A stretch of 64,000 bases of DNA, from the NCBI GenBank assembly GCA_018663035.1, contig JABJEX010000013.1:4409-68408 (forward strand), written 5' to 3'. The translations under genes were made by a program, and so were the position numbers. The notes under the pieces were generated by a model that was not told where the DNA came from, did not search any database, and saw nothing but the letters and a program-made list of their open reading frames with translations. The stretch's first letter is position 1; every line of letters starts with the position of its first letter. Positions 8,913 through 19,782 of this stretch are shown here, in pieces. This DNA comes from Porticoccaceae bacterium (GTDB lineage Bacteria > Pseudomonadota > Gammaproteobacteria > Pseudomonadales > Porticoccaceae).

Positions 8913-9980
8913 CTACCACTTGTCATCATAGGTTTGTAGACGATCAAATGACTCGCCAATCAGAACGCCAAGTTCGCGCTCCTCTCCCTCTTTAAGGTGC
9001 ACCGCGGGACGACCATGGGCGAACCTGTAGTTACAGATAATAGCAACATCACCGACTTGCCAGTTTATCGGTATACCGTAGTCATCATAAATCTTCAAAA
9101 ACAGCTGCTTTTCCTCAGCAGTCATTTCAGTGCCATCGCCAAAGGTTAGCTTCAGGGGGCGTTCATCGGCAGGCAGATGCTGAACCAAAGGCCAGGTGTC
9201 AAACCACATAGCGTCGTCGGCAAGACTGGCGTAAAGCAGGTTGCGATCTAACTGCGGGAAATATTCAAATGCAGAGATGTAGTAACGAGTCTTTAATAGA
9301 CGACCCTCTCCCCACTCGGCTTCCAGCCCACGGTTGCGAGCTTCAGCGATTGCTGCATCTGGATCATCAGTCAACATTGACTGCTGCCAGTGGTTGTAGA
9401 CACCAATATTCAAACGATCGACAAAAGATTCTCTATCTGTCAGGTTGCGGTGATAGCACAGCCCCCGTTTTTTTAGCTTCTGACCAAACTCTGTTGCCAT
9501 TAACGCATCAGTCGCCTGACAGTTATCCGAGACAAAGGTGGCTCCACCCTCACTAGGCATTTTATGGGCCATAAAACTGACCATCTTGGTGCTCGACCCT
9601 ATATAGGCCATTTCATGGTGGTAGTGCAGCCAAGCTTCAAGCGGCGCACCCACTTCATAAACATTCTTTTCAATGGGCCGTCTTGGGTTGGCGCCACCTT
9701 CGTACTTACGTTCATTTTTTAGCACCTGAGTTGCGATAAGGCGCATGGACTGAAGGTCATCCAACCCGGTATTGATTACATGCACCAGTCCAACTCTGTC
9801 AAAAGTAGCTTGCATATGTGCGGCTAACTCATCGCTCGGCACCAGCGGTTGACCATCAGTTCTGTAGTCATTGCCATCAACAACAAACAGTTCTGGACTG
9901 ATCGCAGGCGACCCTGTCCACCACTTTGGTTCTGTGATATCTGGCAGTGGAGCAAAATTTTCGGCGCTGTTAGCGGACAT
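8913..9980 (-). CDS. TauD/TfdA-family Fe(II)/2-oxoglutarate dioxygenase (SyrP-like HxE type)
   Basis: HYHHEMAY (H-x-E), GGATFVSD, and W.VGDVAIICNYRFAHGR (distal His plus Arg). Confidence 0.85.
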   Translation of the reverse strand: MSANSAENFAPLPDITEPKWWTGSPAISPELFVVDGNDYRTDGQPLVPSDELAAHMQATFDRVGLVHVINTGLDDLQSMRLIATQVLKNERKYEGGANPRRPIEKNVYEVGAPLEAWLHYHHEMAYIGSSTKMVSFMAHKMPSEGGATFVSDNCQATDALMATEFGQKLKKRGLCYHRNLTDRESFVDRLNIGVYNHWQQSMLTDDPDAAIAEARNRGLEAEWGEGRLLKTRYYISAFEYFPQLDRNLLYASLADDAMWFDTWPLVQHLPADERPLKLTFGDGTEMTAEEKQLFLKIYDDYGIPINWQVGDVAIICNYRFAHGRPAVHLKEGEERELGVLIGESFDRLQTYDDKW

Positions 9981-10297
9981 CTATTACTTCTCGAACGTTT
10001 TAGTTTTAAAAAAAGCTCCGCATTCTATCTGCGAAAACTGGCGCGAACAACACAATAAGGCTGATTTCTTAGATGATTTATATTGGTCGTCATTACTTTA
10101 CGTCACATTAAAAAAAATCGGTTTATTTTCTTTACCAATATTTGTGCATCGCCAGACGCCCACTTATATCCCTCTTATCTCAACGGCAGAGCAATTCGAC
10201 TTTTTTAAGTAGTGCTCTCAACGTTTAAAGAAGAAAATAGGGCGGTTAAATTTCAAAAAATGTCAGTTAACTAATAACTAAAACTTTTGAGGGACCC

Positions 10298-12763
10298 ATG
10301 ATTCAATCTCGATTAACTCAGCTTGTTCGGCAGCCGCTGGCTGTAGCTTTTGCGGCGCTGATTCTCGCGGCCTGCGGCGGCGGTGGGGGAAGCACTACAC
10401 CACCAGTAACGCCAGGGCCTGTCAGTGATACTACTGCACCGGAAATAACGCTAGTAGGCTCATCTACAATGACCCACGAACAGGGCACCGAATTCTCCGA
10501 TCCAGGTTACAGCGCTTCTGACAACGTAGATAGCAATCTGACCGTTAGCGTCGATGGTGAAGTCAACACAGCAGTTGCAGGCGAATACAGCATTACCTAT
10601 TCGACTAGCGATAGTGCCGGTAACAGCACTTCAGAAACTCGCACGGTTACAGTGGTAGACACCACTGTGCCGGTTATCACTCTTTCAGGTGACGCGGAAG
10701 TATCTGTGCAACAGGGCGATGCCTACACAGACGCTGGCGCAACGGCTAGCGACAGTGCCGATGGCGAAGTTGCCGTAGTCACCTCTGGCAGCGTAGACGC
10801 AAATACTGCGGGTCAATATGTTATTACCTATACCGCAACTGATGCAGCGGGTAATCAGGCCACGCTTACCAGAACAGTCACTGTTGACGAAATTGATACG
10901 GGCGTTATCGGGGGCATCGCTGGCGATTGGCGATTGTCGCCAGTGGCTAACGCTCTGGGTGTAGGCCCTAGCCAGGGCGATATCAGCTGGTGGTCAAGCT
11001 CAGAGGAAGATGTGAACGGCCGCGGATGTCTCTTTGATGATATCTATCGCTTTGCGGAGGATGGCTCATTCTCTAACCTGATGGAAGGCTCTACTTGGGT
11101 TGAACAGTGGCAGGGCGGTGCTGATAGCTGCGGTACACCTGTTGCTCCTCATGATGGGTCTAATGCAGCCACCTATACCTACAACGAAACAGCTGCCACC
11201 CTTACGCTTCAGGGCCTCGGCGCACATATTGGTCTATCCAAGGCATTTAATGGCGGTGAGCTGGCCTCCCCAGCGGATGCAGTTGAATCTATTGTGTACT
11301 CAGTGGTGGAAATGAGCGCCACCGAAATGACGCTGGATATTGAGATCGCTAATGGTGCTTACTGGCGCTTCATGCTCACTAAACTTGATAATGCCGATAT
11401 AGCGCCTGATTTAAGTATTTTAGACAATGGTGTTGCTAGCGCAGAATGGGACACTGGAGTAGTTATCATTGATGAAGCCAAGGCCTGGGGCCGCTGTGAT
11501 TCAGGTGATGATGCCTCATGTCCAAGTGCGAGCTGGACGGTAGTAAATGACGCTGACCGCGGTAATGTTTTGCAAATCAGCCATGCACCAGCGGCGCAGC
11601 TTGGCTTCGTTATCGTGCAGACGTCTACGCCCTATGACCTGTCAGCTTATGCAGGCGGAACCATTGAATTTGATGTAAAAATCATTAGTGGCGACAGCAA
11701 TCTGACCTTAAAATCAGAATGTACCTTTCCCTGTACATCTGGTGATTTCGCTCTTGGCGCAGTGCAGGGCAATGACTGGGTAGCTATATCTGTCAATGTA
11801 AATGATCTGGTTGATCAGGGGCTCAGTCTATCGGCTGTCGACATTGGCTTGGCTATCTGGGCAACTAATCATGACTCTACAGTGTTCCAGATTGACAATG
11901 TTCGCTGGGTAGCCAATCCCAATGGGCCAACGTTTGGCACGGGCAATACTGGCGGCACTATTTCTGAGTGGGTCAAGGCAGATCCCAGCATAGGCTATGT
12001 TACGCCAACAGAATATGCGGGCTATAACCTTGTCTGGGCCGATGAGTTTAATGGCACAGATCTGGACACTACTCAGTGGAAATTCGATATTGGCACCGGC
12101 AGTAATGGCTGGGGTAACAATGAACTCGAGTACTACACTGAGAACAATGTCAGTGTTGAAAACGGATTGCTGGTCATTGAGGCTCGTAAAGAGACCTTTG
12201 GTGGCAGAGCCTATACTTCTTCACGCATCAAAACTCAGGACAATTTCTCTTTCAAATACGGCCGTGTAGATGCCAGAGCAGTTGTTGCAGAGGGTAAGGG
12301 GCTGTGGTCAGCTATCTGGATGCTGGGCCAGAATTTTGCTGAGGTCAGCTGGCCTCATAGTGGTGAGATTGACATAGTCGATACCATTGGTGGCCCAGGC
12401 AATGAGAATTCAGCAGTTCACAATGTCTATTGGAATAATGGTGGCGTTGGCGCAGCTTACAGCCCCGCCTCAGCAGGCACTAATCACGTACTCTCTGGTG
12501 GTGAAACCTATTCTGACACTTTCCATGTGTTCAGCATCGAGTGGACCGAAGATCAGATTATCTGGTACGTCGATGATGTGCAGTCGCACGTGGTAGATGT
12601 CACCGATGGTTCAGATCTTGCAGAAGCTGTTCGAGCAGAGTTCTTCTTGATTCTGAACGTAGCTGTTGGAGGCAACTGGCCTGGTAAGCCGATCACATCT
12701 ACCCAGTTCCCTCGCGGTATGCTGGTAGACTATGTTCGTGTCTTCCAAAAGACTGCTCCCTAA
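10298..12763 (+). CDS. Multidomain surface lipoprotein: 2x Ig-like (DUF5011-type), putative glycan-binding modules and a C-terminal GH16 (laminarinase-like) domain with a variant active site
   Basis: Lipobox LAAC; two TTxPxITLxG...RTVTV Ig repeats; GH16 motifs LVWADEFNG, WGNNELEYY, YTSSRI and KYGRVDARA. The catalytic motif reads EIDIVD instead of ExDxxE. Confidence 0.85.
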   Translation: MIQSRLTQLVRQPLAVAFAALILAACGGGGGSTTPPVTPGPVSDTTAPEITLVGSSTMTHEQGTEFSDPGYSASDNVDSNLTVSVDGEVNTAVAGEYSITYSTSDSAGNSTSETRTVTVVDTTVPVITLSGDAEVSVQQGDAYTDAGATASDSADGEVAVVTSGSVDANTAGQYVITYTATDAAGNQATLTRTVTVDEIDTGVIGGIAGDWRLSPVANALGVGPSQGDISWWSSSEEDVNGRGCLFDDIYRFAEDGSFSNLMEGSTWVEQWQGGADSCGTPVAPHDGSNAATYTYNETAATLTLQGLGAHIGLSKAFNGGELASPADAVESIVYSVVEMSATEMTLDIEIANGAYWRFMLTKLDNADIAPDLSILDNGVASAEWDTGVVIIDEAKAWGRCDSGDDASCPSASWTVVNDADRGNVLQISHAPAAQLGFVIVQTSTPYDLSAYAGGTIEFDVKIISGDSNLTLKSECTFPCTSGDFALGAVQGNDWVAISVNVNDLVDQGLSLSAVDIGLAIWATNHDSTVFQIDNVRWVANPNGPTFGTGNTGGTISEWVKADPSIGYVTPTEYAGYNLVWADEFNGTDLDTTQWKFDIGTGSNGWGNNELEYYTENNVSVENGLLVIEARKETFGGRAYTSSRIKTQDNFSFKYGRVDARAVVAEGKGLWSAIWMLGQNFAEVSWPHSGEIDIVDTIGGPGNENSAVHNVYWNNGGVGAAYSPASAGTNHVLSGGETYSDTFHVFSIEWTEDQIIWYVDDVQSHVVDVTDGSDLAEAVRAEFFLILNVAVGGNWPGKPITSTQFPRGMLVDYVRVFQKTAP

Positions 12764-12777
12764 GATCTAACAGACAG

Positions 12778-12806
12778 GTATCTGGCCTCGCTTGGAGGCC
12801 GGATAC
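12778..12806 (+). terminator. Hairpin between the two GH16 genes (terminator or mRNA stabiliser)
   Basis: 12-bp stem GTATCTGGCCTC-GCTTG-GAGGCCGGATAC with one G-U pair; the U-tail is weak. Confidence 0.5.
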
Positions 12807-12871
12807 TCTGGTCTGTATAGTTATAGCAAGACCAGCCTAACTAGGCTGCATCAATTCCCAAGGGCTCTTCT

Positions 12872-13954
12872 ATGCGTACTCTATTGATAGCTAGTTTAAT
12901 TTCACTACTTGTCGCCTGCGGCGGAAACACCACTTTCAGCCCCAGCCAACCCATCATCGATATAACGCCTCCAGTTATTACACTGCAAGGATCCTCCTCA
13001 CTCACTATTGAACAGGGGTCATCCTACAGCGAGCTCGGAGCATCGGCAGTTGATGATCAAGACGGCAGCCTAGAGGTCGAAATTTCAGGGACTGTAGGCT
13101 CCGAACCTGGTGCCTACACACTGACCTACAGCGCTACAGATAGCGCTAACAATTCTGCGTCAACCAACAGAACAGTCACTGTGATTGCAGCAACTGGCAG
13201 TGCCCAGCCAATTGATGGAACAAAATGGTTTCAACAAACCATTATTCCCAATGGCTCAGGCTGGTTTAATAATGAGCAGCAAATCTACACAGATCGCACT
13301 GAGAACAGCTACGTCAGCGACGGCACCTTAAAAATTGTTGCCAAGAGAGAGCAGTTTACCGATCAGGGTGTTACCAAGCAGTTCACCTCAGCACGACTCA
13401 ATTCTAAATTTGCCTTTAAATACGGCCGAGTTGAAGTCAGAGCCAAGCTCCCCTCAGGGCATGGCACCTGGCCGGCGATATGGATGTTAGGGAAAAACAT
13501 TAATGAGCGAGGAGCCTATTGGCAGCAGCAAGGTTTTGGTAATGTGGGTTGGCCACACTGTGGCGAGCTAGACATCATGGAGCATTGGGGCCGCAACCAA
13601 AACTACGTGCAAAGTGCTATTCACAGCCCCAGTAGTTACGGCGGCACCATCAACCATGGTGGACAGTATGTGAGCACAGTGTCTACAGACTTCCATACCT
13701 ACAGTATGGAGTGGTCGTCTGAGCGAATGATTTTTAGCGTTGATGGCACAGAGCACTACACCTATGACCCAGTAGTTAAAGACGCTGATAGCTGGCCCTT
13801 TGACGCTGAAATGTACCTTCTACTCAATGTTGCAATACAGGATGGTATCTCATCAGCTTTTAATGAGAGCGAAATGGAAATCGACTATGTGCGTATCTAT
13901 AGCCTAGATGCTACCCCTGAAGACGCACCCATCTGGTCTGACGAGTTTAACTAA
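12872..13954 (+). CDS. GH16 endo-beta-1,3-glucanase (laminarinase-like) lipoprotein with one Ig-like domain
   Basis: Lipobox LVAC; one DUF5011-type Ig repeat; intact WPHCGELDIMEHWG (ExDxxE); FTSARL, KYGRVEVRAKLP and WPAIWML motifs. Confidence 0.92.
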   Translation: MRTLLIASLISLLVACGGNTTFSPSQPIIDITPPVITLQGSSSLTIEQGSSYSELGASAVDDQDGSLEVEISGTVGSEPGAYTLTYSATDSANNSASTNRTVTVIAATGSAQPIDGTKWFQQTIIPNGSGWFNNEQQIYTDRTENSYVSDGTLKIVAKREQFTDQGVTKQFTSARLNSKFAFKYGRVEVRAKLPSGHGTWPAIWMLGKNINERGAYWQQQGFGNVGWPHCGELDIMEHWGRNQNYVQSAIHSPSSYGGTINHGGQYVSTVSTDFHTYSMEWSSERMIFSVDGTEHYTYDPVVKDADSWPFDAEMYLLLNVAIQDGISSAFNESEMEIDYVRIYSLDATPEDAPIWSDEFN

Positions 13955-13969
13955 AAGAGAGTTCCGTCT

Positions 13970-13990
13970 GGCAGCCAACCACCGGCTGCC
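13970..13990. terminator. Hairpin between the convergent GH16 and pyrF genes
   Basis: GGCAGCC-AACCACC-GGCTGCC, lying between the two stop codons. Confidence 0.45.
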
Positions 13991-14685
13991 TAGAGCGATT
14001 GGTTGATCTTTCTGAGGACTGCGGTGGGGTTTTCTGCCTGAGTAATGGGTCGACCAATCACTAAAAAGTCACTGCCCATTGCCACTGCATCGATAGGACT
14101 GACGATTCTACGCTGGTCGTCTGCGGCACTTTCTGGCAAGCGAATTCCCGGTGTAATCAACTTAAAGTCTGAACCCAACCCTCGCTTCAGAGCCTGGGCC
14201 TCCTGAGCGGAGCAAACTACGCCATCCAGACCACAGCCTTGCGTCAAGCGCGCCAGGTGCAATACCTGATCACTGGGGCTGCGCTGCACCCCTAACTCGG
14301 CCAAATCCTCTTGGTCCATGCTGGTCAGCACCGTCACCCCTATCAGCAGCATGTCACTGCCCTGCTGATCTAATGCGCGCTTGGCAGCGCTCATCATTCT
14401 TGAGCCGCCTGAGGCATGCACGTTGGCCATCCAGACACCTAGATCTGCCGCGGCACAAATAGCCTTCGCCGTGGTATTGGGAATATCATGAAACTTGAGG
14501 TCGAGAAAGACATCAAAACCGCGGTTTACTAGTGATCTCACTAGCTGAGGCCCCGCCCTAGTAAATAACTCCTTACCCACCTTAAGCCGGCATTCGCTGG
14601 CATCTAACTGCTCAGCCAGAGCGAGGGCCGCCTGCTCATTATCAAAATCTAGAGCGACAATAACGCGGGAATTTGAAGAAGTCAT
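13990..14685 (-). CDS. pyrF: Orotidine-5'-phosphate decarboxylase
   Basis: [37 protein letters not shown] and LVIGRPIT motifs. Start at MTSSNSRV. Confidence 0.98.
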
Positions 14686-14692
14686 AAAGGGA

Positions 14693-14941
14693 TCAGTCCT
14701 TTCTGGTGGCGCGAGCCAATTTGCGTCGATAGCTAGCAATAATCACTGAGCTGGCGAAGACACCCAACAGGGTGCCCGCCGCCAAAAATAGCAACAACCA
14801 AACCCCTAGTGCAATTTCCGGGCTATTTATCAGTACAAAATTTACACTGAGCTGTTGGCTATTTTCCATAGCAAACAGAGCGCCAATTAGAGCAACAGCA
14901 ACAATCAGTAAAAACTTAATAAACGTCCACAGTGCGCGCAC
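14693..14941 (-). CDS. lapA: Lipopolysaccharide assembly protein A family (LapA/YciS)
   Basis: Two hydrophobic helices with [13 protein letters not shown] between them and a basic C-tail; directly upstream of pyrF. Probable GTG start at 14941 with GGAGG 5 nt upstream. Confidence 0.75.
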
Positions 14942-15032
14942 CTTAGCCTCCAGCATGCTATTCGATTCAGCCCGTTACAGTTATTGTAACCGCTGTCTGT
15001 CAAAGCGACAAAAGCCACAGCTTTTTATCCGC

Positions 15033-15070
15033 AAAAAAAATGCGCCGATGGATAAACCAAGGCGCATTTT
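15033..15070 (-). terminator. Intrinsic terminator of rpmE
   Basis: Minus strand reads AAAATGCGCC...GGCGCATTTTTTTT. Confidence 0.8.
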
Positions 15071-15094
15071 ATAGTCTGTCTAGCTGCCTGCTAT

Positions 15095-15304
15095 CTACTT
15101 CTTAGCAGCACCAAAACGCTTGTTGAAGCGATCGATTCGACCACCAGTATCAACAACTTTCTGCTTGCCAGTGTAGAACGGGTGACATGCAGAGCAGACA
15201 TCCAAATATAAATCTTCGGAACGTGTTGATCCGACTTTGATAACGTTACCACAGCTGCAAGTCGCTGCTAATTCGCTATAGTTTGGGTGAATCTCAGTTT
15301 TCAT
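15095..15304 (-). CDS. rpmE: 50S ribosomal protein L31 (zinc-binding C+ type)
   Basis: MKTEIHPNY...CSCG...[15 protein letters not shown]...[10 protein letters not shown]; divergent from priA, as is usual. Confidence 0.98.
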
Positions 15305-15422
15305 CATATACTCCAATTCGCGAGCCGCCACCTCATCGTAAAACTGTTAAGCTACTGGCAACTAACACCAATCTCTAGATAAGTTTCCGAAAGGCACGGT
15401 AGGCCATTTCTAAAGAGCGCGG

Positions 15423-15450
15423 ATTCTAGCAGAAATAAACTGGGTTACAA
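15423..15450 (-). promoter_or_regulatory. Sigma70 promoter of rpmE
   Basis: Minus strand reads TTGTAA-N16-TAGAAT followed by CCGCGC, about 115 nt upstream of the start codon. Confidence 0.55.
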
Positions 15451-15469
15451 AAGGAATTCTTTATTTTTT

Positions 15470-17698
15470 ATGGCGCAATCAGAGCCTTTTATTATTCGTG
15501 TTGCTGTACCTTCGCCACTGCGTCGTCTGTTCGACTATCTAGTTCCGGCCGACTTACTGCAAAGCCACAGTCCCAATGCTGTTCAGCCCGGTTGCAGGGT
15601 CAGAGTGCCCTTTGGTCGCAGACAGCTAGTCGGGCTCATTATAGAAACCGCTCATAGCAGTGAATTCGATATTGCTAAACTAAAACCCGTTGGCGAATTA
15701 GTGGATTCAGAACCTCTGCTACCGCCCTCATTATTCAAGTTGTTTATCTGGGCAGCAAACTATTACCAGCACCCGATTGGCGATGCGCTGTTTGCGACAT
15801 TACCTGTGCTACTCCGAACAGGGCAGCCCCTGCCCGAGCCGGGACAGCCAGGTTGGCAGCTTAGTCATCAAGGACTCGGGTTGGGGCCAAATTCCCTAAA
15901 GCAAGCTCCTAAACAACGCGCCCTAGTAGAGTTTTTGCAAACTCAGGGGGCCGCGGTTTTAGAATCTGTTTTGCTAGCATCATTCTCACGACCCGTTGTT
16001 AGGCAGCTCGAACATAAAGGTCTGCTGGAGTCCTGCTTGATCGAACCGCAGAATCAAGCTGTCTCCACAGACGAGTTATTGGCTGAAAACTCACTTAACC
16101 TTTATGACTCTCAGCGGCTTGCGATGGACGCCATCCAAAGCCATGGCTTCAACTGCTATTTACTCGATGGCGTCACGGGTAGCGGCAAAACTGAAATCTA
16201 CTTGCAGTCCATCGAAAAAGTTTTAAGGTATGGGCGCCAAGCGCTGGTGCTTATTCCAGAAATTAGCCTGACACCACAGACTAAAAAGCGTTTTCGTGAT
16301 CGCTTTAATGTGCCTATGGTAACGCTGCACTCAGGACTAAGTGACAAACAGCGTCTAGTTGCATGGAATCAGGCGAGATCTGGCGAGGCATCCATTGTTC
16401 TTGGCACTAGGTCAGCGATTTTTACCGCATTAAAAAGTCCCGGACTGATCATCCTCGATGAAGAACATGATCAGTCTTACAAACAACAGGACGGCTTTCG
16501 CTATTCGGCTCGAGATCTAGCAGTGATTCGTGCCCGACAAGAAACTATCCCGATTATTTTGGGGTCAGCCACCCCCTCTTTGGAATCGCTAAATAACTGC
16601 GCCATGGGTCGCTACAGTCATCTGATCTTGGATAGTCGGGCCGGTCAGGCGCAACAGCCAGACTGGCATTTAATCGACCTCAAAAATGAGTCTGTGGATT
16701 CAGGCGTTGCAACCTCTACCTTGCAAGCTATTGAGGAAACCCTAAATAGCAACCAGCAGGTCCTAGTGTTTCTCAATCGCCGTGGTTATGCCCCAGCCCT
16801 GCTGTGTCATCAATGCGGCTGGACCGCTGACTGCAATCAGTGCGATGCTCGACTAACAGTGCACCGCGCTCGCGCTCGTCTTATTTGCCACCACTGTGAT
16901 CATCAGCGGCGCATACCCCACCATTGTCCCAGCTGTCAAAGCCAGCAGCTAATTGCCGCTGGCGAGGGTACAGAGCGCAGCGAAGCTTTTTTGCAGCAGC
17001 GCTTCCCAAGCAGTAAGGTATTGCGAGTAGATCGCGATAGCACTAGGCGCAAAGGTGCTATGCAGGAAGTATTCGATACAGCCGACAGCGGTGAGCCCTG
17101 CATTCTTCTAGGCACCCAAATGCTGGCCAAGGGTCACCATTTCCCGAATGTCACTCTGGTAGCGGTGTTAGACGCTGACAGCGGGCTGTTCAGCCCAGAC
17201 TTTCGCGGCCATGAGCGCACTGGACAACTGCTTACTCAGGTTGCTGGGCGCAGTGGCCGAGGCACAGCCCGAGGGAGGGTGTTAATTCAGACCCACCAGC
17301 CGCAACATCCTTTACTTCAGATACTGATGAATGAGGGTTACGGACAGTTCGCTAAAAAGCTTTTATCTGAGCGTCAACTGCATCAGCTACCACCCTTCAG
17401 GCATCTTGTGGTGATCAGAGCTGAATCTAATCGAGCAGAGCTGGCCGAGGCATTTTTACGGCAGGCGCGTCGCTTGGCTGAGACTATCGCAGTGCCTAGC
17501 ACTAGCCTAGCTTATCTGGGACCATTGCCTGCAATGCTGGAAAAGCGCGGCGGTCGCTACCGCTATTTGTTGCAAATCGATGCCGATCATCGCCAGAGCC
17601 TGCATGGACTTTTATCTCAGCTAGCTGGGCAATTGGAGAGCCAACCAGAGGGTAGGTCAATCCGCTGGTCGATTGATGTAGATCCTCAGGAACTGTGA
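15470..17698 (+). CDS. priA: Primosomal protein N' (PriA helicase)
   Basis: GVTGSGKTE, DEEHD, GSATPS, four CxxC zinc knuckles, GTQMLAKG, GRSGR and WSIDVDP motifs. Confidence 0.98.
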   Translation: MAQSEPFIIRVAVPSPLRRLFDYLVPADLLQSHSPNAVQPGCRVRVPFGRRQLVGLIIETAHSSEFDIAKLKPVGELVDSEPLLPPSLFKLFIWAANYYQHPIGDALFATLPVLLRTGQPLPEPGQPGWQLSHQGLGLGPNSLKQAPKQRALVEFLQTQGAAVLESVLLASFSRPVVRQLEHKGLLESCLIEPQNQAVSTDELLAENSLNLYDSQRLAMDAIQSHGFNCYLLDGVTGSGKTEIYLQSIEKVLRYGRQALVLIPEISLTPQTKKRFRDRFNVPMVTLHSGLSDKQRLVAWNQARSGEASIVLGTRSAIFTALKSPGLIILDEEHDQSYKQQDGFRYSARDLAVIRARQETIPIILGSATPSLESLNNCAMGRYSHLILDSRAGQAQQPDWHLIDLKNESVDSGVATSTLQAIEETLNSNQQVLVFLNRRGYAPALLCHQCGWTADCNQCDARLTVHRARARLICHHCDHQRRIPHHCPSCQSQQLIAAGEGTERSEAFLQQRFPSSKVLRVDRDSTRRKGAMQEVFDTADSGEPCILLGTQMLAKGHHFPNVTLVAVLDADSGLFSPDFRGHERTGQLLTQVAGRSGRGTARGRVLIQTHQPQHPLLQILMNEGYGQFAKKLLSERQLHQLPPFRHLVVIRAESNRAELAEAFLRQARRLAETIAVPSTSLAYLGPLPAMLEKRGGRYRYLLQIDADHRQSLHGLLSQLAGQLESQPEGRSIRWSIDVDPQEL

Positions 17699-17785
17699 CC
17701 AAAAACAGTCGGGGCTAGATAGATTGTTTTGCTTACAACAGAGCAATTCACCTACAATCTGAGCCTGATTAAGGGAAATTATTTT

Positions 17786-18319
17786 ATGGCGCAAGACAAG
17801 GCTCGAAAATCTGCTACTCGCTCTCCTCAGCGAGGCCCCGCAACTGAAAAGTCTACCGCGCCCGCTTTTTTGTCTGGCTTAGTACTAGGCGCCCTGCTCA
17901 GCTATTTTATACCCATGCTATTCGACAGCCCATTGCCTGATAGCCAGAGCACCGCAGACAGCGTAGACGAGGTTAAATCACCAAGCCTAACCTTTACCTT
18001 TCATGATATTTTAAAGACTTCGGAGATTGTTATCGCTGAGGAAGAGCAGGTCGAAGATAGCAAGGCGGTACAGGGTGAAGACTACAATTATCTACTGCAA
18101 GTAGGATCCTTTAAAAACAAAGCTGATGCCGAGCGACTGCGTGTTCAGCTCCTACTGCTTAACCTGACGGTGAGCACAGAAACCCTGGGCGCCGAAAAGG
18201 GCGATGTCTGGCACCGCGTATTGGTCGGGCCCTTCGCCAATACCTCTAAAATGGCGTCGGCGAGGGCCAAGCTTGCTCAAAATGAGATAGACACCCTTCT
18301 AGTTAAGCGCAAACTCTAG
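17786..18319 (+). CDS. SPOR-domain cell-division protein (FtsN-like)
   Basis: Basic N-terminus, one TM helix, FTFHDIL and a C-terminal SPOR domain (YLLQVGSFKNKADAE...WHRVLVGPF). Start at MAQDK. Confidence 0.85.
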   Translation: MAQDKARKSATRSPQRGPATEKSTAPAFLSGLVLGALLSYFIPMLFDSPLPDSQSTADSVDEVKSPSLTFTFHDILKTSEIVIAEEEQVEDSKAVQGEDYNYLLQVGSFKNKADAERLRVQLLLLNLTVSTETLGAEKGDVWHRVLVGPFANTSKMASARAKLAQNEIDTLLVKRKL

Positions 18320-19662
18320 AGATAGGCATCGTATTCCATCATTGTGACGGCAGAATCAAACTCCTGCTTCTCTTTGCGCTTGCACAGTGCATAGGTAGAC
18401 TGTAACTCAGCCCCTAAGTACTCCCTTATAAAATCTGACTTCTCAAACGCTTTAATAGCATCATTCCAAAAATGCGGCAGCGTGGCCTCAACATCGCCAG
18501 CGTCACCCTCGACTGCTTCAGGTGCTTTTAATTTGTTTTCAATGCCATACAGAGCTCCTGCCAACATTGCTGCGACCGTGAGATAAACATTGGCATCTGC
18601 GCCGGCTACACGATGTTCTATGCGCATAGCGCTGTTATCGCCACCGGGTATACGGATGGCTGTGGTGCGATTTTCATAGCCCCAATTGGGTGCCAGTGGC
18701 GCATAGCATCCGGGTACCATGCGGCGAAAGGAGTTGATATTAGGAGCGAATATAGCCATGCAGTCGGCCATAGTTTCTAGGCAACCAGCGACCGCATGGT
18801 TGAGCAGCTCCGAGCCCTGCTCTGTGCCATTATCAAACACATTATTACCCTGGTCGTCGAGTAGACTAAAGTGGATATGCATACCATTGCCAACCTGCTC
18901 TGCAAAAGGCTTAGCCATAAAGGAAGCTACTTTGCCATGGTTGTGGGATACATTGCGAATGGCGCGCTTCAGCATGCTGCCCTGGTCGCAGGCACGCAAT
19001 GCACAATCTTGATGGTAGAGATTAATCTCGAACTGTGAGGGGCCAAACTCTGTAATCAGGGTATCTACCGGTAGATTCTGGATTCTTGCCGCCTCGGAGA
19101 TGGCATCCATGAGTGGCGCCGTCCGGCGCATAGCCTCTAGACCGTATGTCTGGCCTCCCAGCGCCGGACTACCATCCAGCGCACTTTGGCTGTGCTGAGG
19201 CTTGCCAAATTGATCGCGATCTAATTCGAACAGATGAAACTCCATCTCACTAGCAACCACTGGTGTGAGACCGAGAGCCTTAAAGCGTGCCAATAGGTTT
19301 TCAAGAACAACGCGTGGGTCGCCACCGTAGTGACTTTCCCCATTAAAGCTACCCATAGAAACAATGAGTTGGCCTGTGGGTCGATCCGCCCAGGGGACCC
19401 GCGCCAGGGTTTCAGGGTGGGGCTTGCAGACGCCATCAGCGTCGCCACTGTCTGCCACTAGCTCCTCGAGATCGCGCCCCCAGATATCTAAAGAACAGGT
19501 GTTTTGGGGCATTTTATAGCCGCCCTCAAAAACCTTAGCGATCTGCTCGCGGGGTAACCATTTGCCGCGATGTACGGCGTTTAGGTCATGCAGAATCACC
19601 TCAAATATTTCTATATCCGGGTTATCTTGCAAAAATTGATCGAGTGGGGAGAGCATAGCCAT
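18316..19662 (-). CDS. Glutamine-synthetase-family gamma-glutamylpolyamine ligase (PuuA/PauA-like)
   Basis: EMEFHL, EFGPSQFEIN, GNGMHIHFSL, WGYENRTTAIRIP and RIEHRVAGADAN motifs. The N-terminus (DLNAVHRGKW) is PuuA-type, and a PuuD-like gene lies nearby. Confidence 0.85.
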   Translation of the reverse strand: MAMLSPLDQFLQDNPDIEIFEVILHDLNAVHRGKWLPREQIAKVFEGGYKMPQNTCSLDIWGRDLEELVADSGDADGVCKPHPETLARVPWADRPTGQLIVSMGSFNGESHYGGDPRVVLENLLARFKALGLTPVVASEMEFHLFELDRDQFGKPQHSQSALDGSPALGGQTYGLEAMRRTAPLMDAISEAARIQNLPVDTLITEFGPSQFEINLYHQDCALRACDQGSMLKRAIRNVSHNHGKVASFMAKPFAEQVGNGMHIHFSLLDDQGNNVFDNGTEQGSELLNHAVAGCLETMADCMAIFAPNINSFRRMVPGCYAPLAPNWGYENRTTAIRIPGGDNSAMRIEHRVAGADANVYLTVAAMLAGALYGIENKLKAPEAVEGDAGDVEATLPHFWNDAIKAFEKSDFIREYLGAELQSTYALCKRKEKQEFDSAVTMMEYDAYL

Positions 19663-19782
19663 AGTGTTTTCCAATTTGCTTATCGGCAACAGTAGCGCAT
19701 GTTGCAGCACAAATACATTGACCCCTGTGCTAACTACCCCTTGGTGGTATCTAAAATTAGCTCAGACAAAGCATTGGGGGAC

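What the first reader, a model, noticed from the sequence alone, without database searches (positions are those of the whole stretch)
10298..12763. GH16 with Asp replacing the catalytic acid/base Glu: a possible non-catalytic laminarin-capture lipoprotein
Seen: codons at 12365-12382 read GAG ATT GAC ATA GTC GAT, giving E690-I-D692-I-V-D695. The neighbouring GH16 has the canonical ELDIME. Established: GH16 catalysis needs the ExDxxE nucleophile and acid/base pair, and shortening the acid/base Glu normally cripples hydrolysis. Inference: this large surface lipoprotein binds beta-1,3-glucan and holds it for the active partner next door. That would be a gammaproteobacterial stand-in for Bacteroidota SusD/SGBP proteins, or else it has altered (transglycosylase) chemistry.
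Basis: partly seen in the sequence, partly recalled or inferred. Interest (0 to 1): 0.78.

Follow-up and report, generated by a model that had tools for sequence, protein, structure and literature searches.

The report
Laminarinase clade with aspartate acid/base
A surface enzyme that marine bacteria use to cut the algal sugar laminarin carries a shortened catalytic residue; the change is real, old and strictly conserved with other changes beside it, so it is probably a retuned enzyme, not a dead one.

Summary
ORF 10298-12763 (821 aa, lipoprotein) ends in a GH16_3 laminarinase domain that reads E690-I-D692-I-V-D695. D695 aligns with the acid/base Glu of solved laminarinases. The downstream GH16 is canonical (ELDIME).

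It is neither an assembly error nor decay. The Asp is invariant in 28 domains forming one clade (support 0.999-1.0) and in dozens of independent metagenome assemblies. dN/dS of the domain is 0.04.

The change is not isolated. Along the same branch WPA became WSA, P664 became A, M696 became T, and G-T-x-H became [H/N]-[N/K]-x-[Y/F]; the canonical Thr and His bind the +1 glucose. The nucleophile E690, D692 and the other conserved positions are kept. One sub-lineage switched D-T back to E-M.

In sister Porticoccaceae-like genomes the same slot (large GH16, small ZgLamA-like GH16, pyrF, priA) holds a canonical enzyme.

My best reading (0.55) is a still-catalytic surface endo-beta-1,3-glucanase with a remodelled acid/base and +1 subsite. 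A non-catalytic capture protein remains possible (0.27). The SusD analogy has no support from context. No clade member has been characterised, and only biochemistry can decide.

The parts
10298..12763 (+). Large modular GH16 lipoprotein (P0001, 821 aa), the D-type enzyme
   Evidence: ORF list and translation; Pfam GH16 82 bits and two Bact_surface_Ig-like domains
10298..10375 (+). Lipoprotein signal peptide with lipobox L-A-A-C (Cys26 at 10373-10375), followed by a Gly-rich linker
   Evidence: Read directly from the translation and DNA; this is an inference from the lipobox consensus, as no predictor was run
10445..10888 (+). Two Ig-like spacer domains (residues 50-119 and 120-197)
   Evidence: Pfam PF16403 at 7e-42 with two stretches; AF2 pLDDT about 90 and all-beta
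10910..11392 (+). Unassigned module A (residues about 205-365)
   Evidence: No Pfam, NCBIfam or PDB sequence match; AF2 confidence is low to moderate
11405..11932 (+). Module B (residues about 370-545), a beta-sandwich and putative carbohydrate-binding module
   Evidence: Pfam Exop_C (galactose-binding-like) at 3.6e-6 for residues 438-537. AF2 pLDDT is about 90 and all-beta. Cys400, 408, 475 and 479 are nearly invariant in alignment A2. The module is shared with canonical large GH16s at this locus
12020..12754 (+). GH16_3 laminarinase-type catalytic domain (residues 575-819)
   Evidence: PDB phmmer gives 4dfs/3azx at 1e-63 and 4crq at 2e-62; Foldseek to 4crq gives TM 0.95 and rmsd 1.6 A
12365..12382 (+). 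Catalytic strand E690-I-D692-I-V-D695: nucleophile Glu and helper Asp kept, acid/base Glu replaced by Asp. T696 (12383-12385) replaces the canonical Met
12287..12313 (+). Neighbouring strand with A664 (canonical Pro in 255/261) and W670-S671-A672 (canonical WPA in 258/261)
12416..12430 (+). V707-H708-N709-V710-Y711, which replaces the canonical [H/Y]-G-T-x-H. The canonical Thr and His (SCLam T161/H163; ZgLamC His155) bind the +1 glucose
   Evidence: MAFFT column counts; SCLam contacts from PMC7961093; His155 described as 'strongly conserved' in PMC6827312. The residue mapping is by motif and offset, so it is an inference
12872..13954 (+). Small partner GH16 lipoprotein (P0002, 360 aa): one Ig-like domain plus a ZgLamA-like GH16 with canonical GELDIMEH. 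It is probably co-transcribed, with a 108-bp gap and no terminator found

Best explanation
P0001 is the large, outer-membrane-anchored endo-beta-1,3-glucanase of a two-gene laminarin locus in a streamlined marine gammaproteobacterium, probably of the Porticoccaceae. It belongs to a previously undescribed, monophyletic sub-clade of GH16_3. In this clade the general acid/base is Asp instead of Glu, and the residues around the acid/base and the +1 (leaving-group) subsite were replaced together: M696T, P671S, P664A, G708H/N, T709N/K and H711Y/F. The nucleophile, the helper Asp and the negative subsites are untouched.

I infer that the domain still cleaves beta-1,3-glucan by the retaining mechanism. 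The shorter carboxylate would be accommodated by the second-shell changes, and handling of the aglycone side is probably altered (for example branch tolerance, product profile, pH dependence or hydrolysis/transglycosylation ratio). The Ig-like and beta-sandwich modules hold the catalytic domain away from the membrane and provide the glycan binding. The products would go to the ZgLamA-like partner, and then to the GH17, GH149 phosphorylase and MFS transporter cluster elsewhere in the genome.

Shown here: the sequence facts, the conservation, the phylogeny and the synteny. Inferred: activity, the surface location and the division of labour.
For: - Position: D695 occupies the acid/base position.
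- Clade: 28 of 301 aligned GH16 domains have E-x-D-x-x-D and form one clade, support 1.0 and 0.999. The clade is nested among canonical marine gammaproteobacterial large GH16s.
- Conservation: E690, D692, H743, W670, W674 and W685 are among the 36 of 43 canonical conserved positions kept at 90% or more. Only P664, P671 and E695 are fully replaced, each by one invariant residue.
- +1 subsite: further switches cluster on the strand whose canonical Thr and His hydrogen-bond the +1 glucose.
- Back-switch: at 96% protein identity, cluster members carry either I-M-D-T or I-T-E-M (four nucleotide changes in nine). This keeps the D/T and E/M coupling on an unchanged WSA/A664/Y711 scaffold.
- Selection: dN/dS between G000 and G054 is 0.038 for the GH16 domain, against 0.118 for the canonical partner.
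- Synteny: the slot large GH16, small GH16, pyrF, priA holds a D-type in G000, G054, G102, L001 and L099. The E-M revertant occupies it in L098. It holds a canonical EIDIMEM/WPA enzyme in G246 (same genus), G314 and G328.
- Nucleophile-less modules: GH16_3 modules without a nucleophile in the same data set lose the nucleophile or the helper Asp, which this clade never does.
- Architecture: the domain layout matches the active surface enzyme Cf-GH16_3.
- Model: the GH16 model superposes on ZgLamC with TM 0.95.
- Pathway: the genome has only these two GH16 genes, plus three GH17, a GH149 phosphorylase and an MFS_2 transporter.
Against: - No biochemical data exist for any clade member. No paper in the library holds the motif strings or EXDXXD.
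- Shortening the acid/base normally lowers activity, and I could not retrieve quantitative GH16 Glu-to-Asp mutant data.
- The changed residues are exactly those a lineage would alter to abolish turnover while keeping the tight negative-subsite binding.
- Nucleophile-less GH16 modules also keep 25-38 of the 43 scaffold positions, so overall conservation alone does not prove catalysis.
- Every D-type genome examined also has a canonical GH16 next door, so hydrolysis does not strictly require the D-type.
- I could not inspect model coordinates to measure the carboxylate-to-carboxylate distance.
Confidence: 0.55

Rival explanations
1. Non-catalytic or nearly inactive laminarin-capture lipoprotein. 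The GH16 cleft keeps its negative subsites and binds beta-1,3-glucan. The Asp and the altered +1 subsite prevent turnover, so the chain is held at the cell surface for the ZgLamA-like partner.
For: The acid/base is shortened, and the Thr and His that contact the +1 sugar are replaced. In SCLam the strongest substrate interactions are in the negative subsites, which are intact here. A canonical GH16 is always encoded beside or near the D-type. Both proteins are lipoproteins and are probably co-transcribed. GH16-derived modules that lack catalytic residues do occur in related proteins.
Against: A binding module has no need for an invariant carboxylate at 695, an invariant nucleophile and an invariant helper Asp across a clade down to about 50% identity. 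The nucleophile-less GH16_3 modules in the data set lose exactly those residues. A close sub-lineage restored Glu together with Met. Canonical enzymes fill the same slot in sister genomes and have the same small partner, so the partner is not specific to the D-type. The protein has its own putative binding modules. There is no TonB-dependent receptor or SusC/D-like gene at the locus.
Confidence: 0.27
2. Dedicated transglycosylase or otherwise altered chemistry. The glycosyl-enzyme intermediate forms, but the repositioned Asp and the new +1 subsite favour transfer to a sugar acceptor over water, so the protein remodels or elongates beta-1,3-gluco-oligosaccharides at the surface.
For: All diagnostic changes lie on the acceptor/leaving-group side, while the donor side is unchanged. 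Binding in the positive subsites is described as the critical step for transglycosylation in GH16 laminarinases (PMC7961093).
Against: Known GH16 transglycosylases keep Glu as the acid/base (from memory, not tested here). A catabolic context (GH149, GH17 and an MFS transporter elsewhere) gives no obvious use for a pure transferase. No direct evidence exists.
Confidence: 0.12
3. Sequencing or assembly error, or a decaying pseudogene.
For: None beyond the rarity of the substitution.
Against: The same codon and motif appear in independent genomes and in dozens of assemblies. The frame is intact, and dN/dS is 0.04-0.07.
Confidence: 0.01

Closest known systems
ZgLamC (Zobellia galactanivorans modular GH16_3 laminarinase; PDB 4crq/4cte) and Thermotoga laminarinases (3azx, 4dfs)
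   Same: The GH16 domain is 44-45% identical, with phmmer E-values of 1e-62 to 1e-63. The model superposes on 4crq with TM 0.95 and rmsd 1.6 A. The nucleophile, helper Asp, Trp platform and calcium-side scaffold positions are shared.
   Different: The acid/base is Asp, not Glu; WPA is WSA; His155 of ZgLamC is Tyr/Phe; the Thr two residues before it is Asn/Lys; Met after the acid/base is Thr. The loop after the catalytic strand carries two to three extra residues.
Cf-GH16_3 of Christiangramia forsetii (surface lipoprotein: Ig-like, CBM, GH16_3; bioRxiv 10.1101/2023.09.07.556657)
   Same: It is a lipoprotein in which N-terminal Ig-like spacers and a non-catalytic beta module precede a C-terminal GH16_3. 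It has a role at the cell surface in laminarin use.
   Different: Cf-GH16_3 comes from a different phylum and sits in a SusC/D PUL. The modules here are not shown to be related to its CBM, and its catalytic motif is canonical.
Canonical large GH16 at the same locus in sister genomes (G246, G314, G328; EIDIMEM, WPA, His)
   Same: They occupy the same genomic slot upstream of the small ZgLamA-like GH16, pyrF and priA. They share the beta-sandwich module plus GH16 architecture, with 47-54% identity over residues 372-818.
   Different: They keep all canonical active-site residues. The G246 protein has a different N-terminal region.
Catalytically dead GH16-like glucan-binding domains (insect beta-GRP/GNBP; the second GH16 module of P0015/P0017 found here)
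   Same: They have the GH16 fold with a changed catalytic motif, and binding rather than cleavage is proposed or known.
   Different: Those have lost the nucleophile and usually the helper Asp as well (for example S-x-T-x-x-D or Q-x-N-x-x-E). The present clade keeps both, and keeps a carboxylate at the third site.
SusD-like proteins and SGBPs of Bacteroidota
   Different: There is no SusD fold or family match. No SusC or TonB-dependent transporter is adjacent, and the locus is flanked by housekeeping genes.

Membership tests
GH16 (glycoside hydrolase family 16) | Sequence match to the family profile above the curated threshold | tested here: met
   PF00722 scores 82.3 bits against a cut-off of 22
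GH16 (glycoside hydrolase family 16) | Beta-jelly-roll fold | tested here: met
   The AF2 GH16 region has pLDDT about 90. Foldseek to 4crq gives TM 0.95 and rmsd 1.6 A
GH16 (glycoside hydrolase family 16) | Catalytic motif E-x-D-x-(x)-E: nucleophile Glu and helper Asp | tested here: met
   E690 and D692 are present and invariant in the clade
GH16 (glycoside hydrolase family 16) | Catalytic motif E-x-D-x-(x)-E: acid/base Glu | tested here: not met
   D695 is Asp in 28/28 clade members, against Glu in 261/261 canonical domains
GH16 (glycoside hydrolase family 16) | Glycosidase or transglycosidase activity | not testable with these tools
   This needs an enzyme assay
GH16_3 (laminarinase subfamily, Viborg et al. 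2019) | Closest relatives and tree position among GH16_3 laminarinases | tested here: met
   The best PDB hits are all GH16_3 laminarinases. The clade is nested among canonical GH16_3 domains
GH16_3 (laminarinase subfamily, Viborg et al. 2019) | Pattern WPA ... WXX ... WPX | tested here: not met
   The first element is W-S-A, with Ser in 28/28 against Pro in 258/261. W674-M-L and W685-P-H are present
GH16_3 (laminarinase subfamily, Viborg et al. 2019) | Strongly conserved His (ZgLamC His155) in the loop or strand after the catalytic strand | tested here: not met
   Y711 is Tyr/Phe in 27/28 against His in 233/261
SusD-like / SGBP surface glycan-binding proteins | SusD-family fold or profile match | tested here: not met
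   There are no SusD/RagB Pfam hits, and the protein is all-beta
SusD-like / SGBP surface glycan-binding proteins | Encoded next to a SusC-like or TonB-dependent transporter in a utilisation locus | tested here: not met
   The neighbours are TauD-like, FAD oxidase, queA, pyrF and priA
SusD-like / SGBP surface glycan-binding proteins | Lipoprotein anchoring | tested here: met
   The lipobox LAAC with Cys26 is read from the sequence; no predictor was run
SusD-like / SGBP surface glycan-binding proteins | Binds glycan without cleaving it | not testable with these tools
   This needs binding and activity assays
Non-catalytic GH16-like glucan-binding modules (beta-GRP type) | Loss of the catalytic nucleophile, usually with the helper Asp | tested here: not met
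   E690 and D692 are invariant. The contrast set with S/Q/A/T at 690 is listed

The most novel reading that the evidence does not exclude
The D-T and E-M states are two functional settings of the same surface protein. The Asp form would be a slow or non-turnover laminarin trap, or a form with different specificity. The Glu form would be a fast hydrolase. Natural populations of marine Porticoccaceae-like bacteria would switch between them by a few point changes, as seen in the 96%-identical P0302 (I-M-D-T) and P0300/P0038 (I-T-E-M) proteins. That would be an enzyme-to-lectin (or specificity) toggle operating within a species-level population. It would also give the first gammaproteobacterial analogue of an SGBP built from a glycosidase cleft.
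Probability: 0.17. Interest if true: 0.75.

Novelty: new variant of a known kind. Interest (0 to 1): 0.55.

Why it matters
Laminarin is one of the largest carbon fluxes in the ocean, and small-genome Gammaproteobacteria such as the SAR92/Porticoccaceae group are major consumers. CAZyme annotation counts every GH16_3 as an active laminarinase. Here a whole conserved clade departs from the family's catalytic motif and from two subfamily hallmarks.

If the clade is active, it would be a natural retaining GH16 that uses Asp as its acid/base, with a defined set of compensating residues. I found no such case in the literature I could search. It would be a ready-made system for studying acid/base positioning and +1-subsite specificity.

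If it is inactive, gene-count-based estimates of laminarinase potential in these bacteria are inflated, and a new kind of surface glycan-capture protein exists outside the Bacteroidota. Either outcome can be tested with one expression construct and two mutants.

Tried and rejected
I replaced it with cross-genome and cross-assembly conservation.
- The search for related loci on genome contigs with the clade alignment: the second pattern (GWPxSGE[IL]DI) also matches canonical GH16.
- Literature searches for EXDXXD, for the motif strings (EIDIVD and others), for inactive family-16 laminarinases and for Glu-to-Asp mutants (E107D, E138D and others) found nothing relevant.
- Rv0315 (PMC4606783) is an inactive GH16, but it keeps both Glu residues, so it is not a precedent.
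- The ZgLamA paper (PMC3900952) is not held.
- My recollection that Glu-to-Asp at the acid/base of Bacillus circulans xylanase costs far less than at the nucleophile could not be verified in the library. I do not use it as evidence.
- AF2 of the GH16 domain with an 11-sequence alignment was mediocre (pLDDT 72.7). The 50-sequence full-length run was good.
- PDB sequence search of the middle modules (residues 198-559) found nothing.
- Partner test: I asked whether the E-M revertant lineage had lost the partner GH16, which would have favoured the capture model. It has not, and both loci keep the small GH16.
- Overall scaffold conservation as proof of catalysis is rejected, because nucleophile-less GH16 modules also keep most scaffold positions.
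Full report
**1. Observation**

ORF 10298-12763 (+) encodes an 821-aa protein, P0001. Bases 12365-12382 are GAG ATT GAC ATA GTC GAT, which gives E690-I-D692-I-V-D695. The next ORF, 12872-13954 (P0002, 360 aa), reads GELDIMEH.

P0001 residues 575-819 match solved GH16_3 laminarinases. The matches are 4dfs and 3azx at 1e-63 and 4crq at 2e-62. D695 aligns with the acid/base Glu of GEIDIME in 3azx and 4dfs. In 4crq, the ZgLamC E142S acid/base mutant, it aligns with the mutated Ser.

**2. Anatomy**

- The N-terminus carries a lipoprotein signal (…ILAAC26GGGGGS).
- Two Bact_surface_Ig-like domains follow (residues 50-197).
- Module A (residues about 205-365) has no Pfam, NCBIfam or PDB match and is modelled with low confidence.
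- Module B (residues about 370-545) is a confidently modelled beta-sandwich. It has a weak Exop_C (galactose-binding-like) match and nearly invariant Cys pairs.
- The GH16 domain comes last. In a full-length AF2 model (50-sequence alignment, mean pLDDT 81, about 90 in the GH16 part) it superposes on ZgLamC with TM 0.95 and rmsd 1.6 A.
- P0002 is also a lipoprotein (LVAC16), with one Ig-like domain and a ZgLamA-like GH16 (4bq1/4bow, about 1e-60).
- The two genes are 108 bp apart, and the consensus scan found no terminator between them.
- The flanks are housekeeping genes: queA, an FAD oxidase and a TauD-like gene upstream; pyrF and priA downstream. There is no transporter or PUL context.

**3. 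The change is not an error or decay**

I searched the 5.8-billion-protein collection and the 1.84-billion representative library, which returned 22,966 hits. I then cut out and aligned 301 GH16 domains.

- 261 domains have the canonical E/D/E triad. 28 have E/D/D, of which 27 are followed by Thr and one by Asn.
- In a FastTree phylogeny the D-type domains form a single clade, with support 1.0 and then 0.999 after genome sequences were added. One E-type sequence, P0038, is nested inside it.
- The clade reaches down to about 50% identity to P0001.
- At least eight clusters at 50% identity belong to it: P0005, P0108, P0130, P0133, P0140, P0147, P0154 and P0196.
- Look-ups within the 90% clusters show the same motif in about 45 further sequences from the JGI, ENA, Logan and NCBI assemblies.
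- The codon is GAT in every locus I read.
- Between G000 and the congeneric G054, dN/dS is 0.038 for the GH16 domain and 0.066 for the whole protein. For the canonical partner it is 0.118.
It is no longer needed to exclude an artefact.

**4. The Asp is one part of a coordinated remodelling**

Of the 43 columns that are at least 90% conserved in the canonical set:

- 36 stay at least 90% conserved in the D-clade.
- Four vary conservatively (R/K, L/M, F/Y, V/I).
- Three are replaced outright by one invariant residue each: P664 to A, P671 to S (the WPA hallmark becomes WSA) and E695 to D.

Further clade-specific states are listed below.

| Position | Canonical state | D-clade state |
|---|---|---|
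| 694 | Met | mostly Val |
| 696 | Met/Leu/His | Thr |
| 708 | Gly (196/261) | His/Asn |
| 709 | Thr (203/261) | Asn/Lys |
| 711 | His (233/261) | Tyr/Phe (27/28) |
| 807 | Arg (most common residue, 106/261) | Gly |

Numbering against 4crq shows that position 711 is ZgLamC His155. Viborg et al. 2019 single this residue out as strongly conserved in GH16_3.

In SCLam (6xof), T161 and H163 lie at +12 and +14 from the acid/base. This is the same G-T-x-H motif, and both residues hydrogen-bond the +1 glucose. The acid/base itself contacts O3 of that glucose (PMC7961093). The mapping of 709 and 711 to T161 and H163 is by motif and offset, and is anchored on the conserved Trp712. It is an inference: pairwise HMMER alignments place the loop gaps slightly differently.

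So every diagnostic change lies at the acid/base, beneath it, or in the +1 subsite. The nucleophile, the helper Asp, H743, the Trp platform and the negative subsites are untouched.

**5. A natural back-switch**

Inside the clade, P0038 reads E-I-D-I-T-E-M while its sister P0030 reads E-I-D-I-M-D-T. Within one 90% cluster, P0302 and P0301 have M-D-T, while P0038, P0300, P0303 and P0304 have T-E-M. P0302 and P0300 are 96% identical, and half of their 34 differences lie within about 80 residues of the GH16 domain.

At the DNA level, ATG GAT ACC became ACG GAA ATG, which is four changes in nine bases. The revertant keeps A664, WSA and Y711.

The pairing (Asp with Thr, Glu with Met) has therefore changed twice in a coupled way. 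The only substitution ever seen at 695 in this clade is back to the other carboxylate.

**6. Genomic setting**

The genome (2.0 Mb, 100% complete) has only these two GH16 genes. Source names on partner homologues point to the Porticoccaceae ('Gammaproteobacteria bacterium MOLA455' and 'Porticoccaceae bacterium'). This assignment is an inference.

A DNA pattern for GE[IL]DIxDT[IV]GG was scanned in 301 genomes of the order. It hit only three, all in the window's genus.

tblastn of the neighbours shows one conserved locus: large GH16, small ZgLamA-like GH16, pyrF, priA. It is present in G000, G054, G102, G246, G314, G328, L001, L098 and L099. The occupant of the large-GH16 slot varies:

| Occupant of the large-GH16 slot | Where |
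|---|---|
| D-type | G000, G054, G102, L001, L099 |
| E-M revertant | L098 |
| Canonical (P, P, EIDIMEM, H) | G246 (same genus), G314, G328 |
| Absent | G347 |

These states are shown. The canonical occupants fall in clades next to the D-clade. The small partner accompanies both kinds of large enzyme.

Elsewhere in the genome (contig C93) there are three GH17 genes, a GH149 beta-1,3-glucan phosphorylase (1742 bits) and an MFS_2 sugar transporter. This organism is thus a dedicated laminarin consumer.

**7. Interpretation**

What I see instead is as follows:

- An invariant nucleophile, helper Asp and carboxylate at 695.
- A conserved new second shell around them.
- A reversion to Glu plus Met.
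- Positional equivalence with canonical enzymes.
- An architecture that already contains separate binding-type modules. This matches the active surface enzyme Cf-GH16_3 (Ig-like, CBM, GH16_3).

By contrast, the GH16_3 modules in my data set that lack a nucleophile show E to Q/A/S/T and D to N/H/T/S. Examples are the second modules of P0015 and P0017, and P0205, P0210 and P0246.

I therefore favour, at 0.55, a still-catalytic endo-beta-1,3-glucanase. Its shorter acid/base would be accommodated by the S671/T696/A664 changes, and its +1 subsite has been redesigned. The likely consequences are for leaving-group and acceptor handling: branch tolerance, product spectrum, pH profile or transfer-versus-hydrolysis ratio.

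The capture model keeps 0.27 for three reasons. The altered residues are also the ones that would stop turnover while sparing the high-affinity negative subsites. A canonical GH16 is always nearby. And scaffold conservation alone does not prove catalysis. A dedicated transglycosylase gets 0.12, and error or decay 0.01.

**8. Comparison with what is known, and novelty**

The domain belongs to GH16 by profile and fold, and to GH16_3 by relatedness. It fails three sequence hallmarks: the acid/base Glu, the Pro of WPA and His155.

It is not a SusD-like protein, and it has no transporter context. Viborg et al. report that only 0.7% of GH16_3 members lack a catalytic residue, and they describe no coherent Asp clade. 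I found no paper holding the motif or describing such a variant.

I class it as a new variant of a known kind. It is a conserved 'Asp/WSA' sub-clade of GH16_3 in abundant marine Gammaproteobacteria, and it is uncharacterised biochemically.

**9. Limits**

- No enzyme data exist for any clade member.
- The read-level check was closed.
- The taxonomic range of the clade beyond this genus rests on anonymous metagenome contigs.

Noticed in passing
window 13934-13951 (C-terminus of P0002): The small partner GH16 ends in ...PIWSDEFN. This is the strand that normally opens a GH16 domain, and no W-x-DEF strand precedes its catalytic core. 81 of 120 partner homologues end the same way.
   Followed up: partly
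L098 843-3461 versus L099 1656-4208 (and proteins P0300-P0304, P0302): Near-identical proteins (96%) differ at the catalytic strand: I-M-D-T versus I-T-E-M (ATG GAT ACC versus ACG GAA ATG). Half of all their differences cluster within about 80 residues of the GH16 domain. This could be a local burst of substitutions or a small recombination tract.
   Followed up: partly
proteins P0015, P0017 (second GH16 module), P0205, P0210, P0246, P0126, P0128: These are GH16_3-like modules with the nucleophile and/or helper Asp replaced (S-M-T-I-F-D, A-I-H-I-M-E, Q-I-N-I-A-E and others). Several sit in tandem behind an intact GH16. They are better candidates for non-catalytic glucan-binding modules than the D-clade.
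   Followed up: no
G000 contig C93, locus L096 about 9100-19700: This is a second laminarin cluster. It holds two tandem GH17 genes, a GH149 beta-1,3-glucan phosphorylase (1190 aa, NCBIfam 1742 bits), an MFS_2 sugar transporter, a 413-aa GH2-like fragment hit and a third GH17-like protein of 625 aa. The GH17 part is conserved in all five genomes of the genus that were checked.
   Followed up: partly
L090 (G246), L091 (G347), L092 (G102): The 'large GH16' slot turns over within one genus. There is an 821-aa D-type (G000, G054), a roughly 520-aa D-type only about 50% identical (G102), a 775-aa canonical enzyme with a dockerin/EF-hand-like N-terminal motif (G246), and no large gene at all (G347). 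The small partner stays throughout.
   Followed up: partly
L099 6529-11073: A third GH16 lies at the same locus in one metagenome lineage. It is 1514 aa, with about five Ig-like repeat units and then a ZgLamA-like catalytic domain (EVDLMEHWG). It looks like a duplicate of the small partner with an expanded stalk.
   Followed up: no
window 10910-11932 (P0001 residues about 205-545): Two unassigned modules lie between the Ig-like repeats and GH16. Module B (370-545) is a confident beta-sandwich with four nearly invariant Cys, and it is shared with canonical large GH16s. Module A (205-365) is poorly modelled and has no family match.
   Followed up: partly
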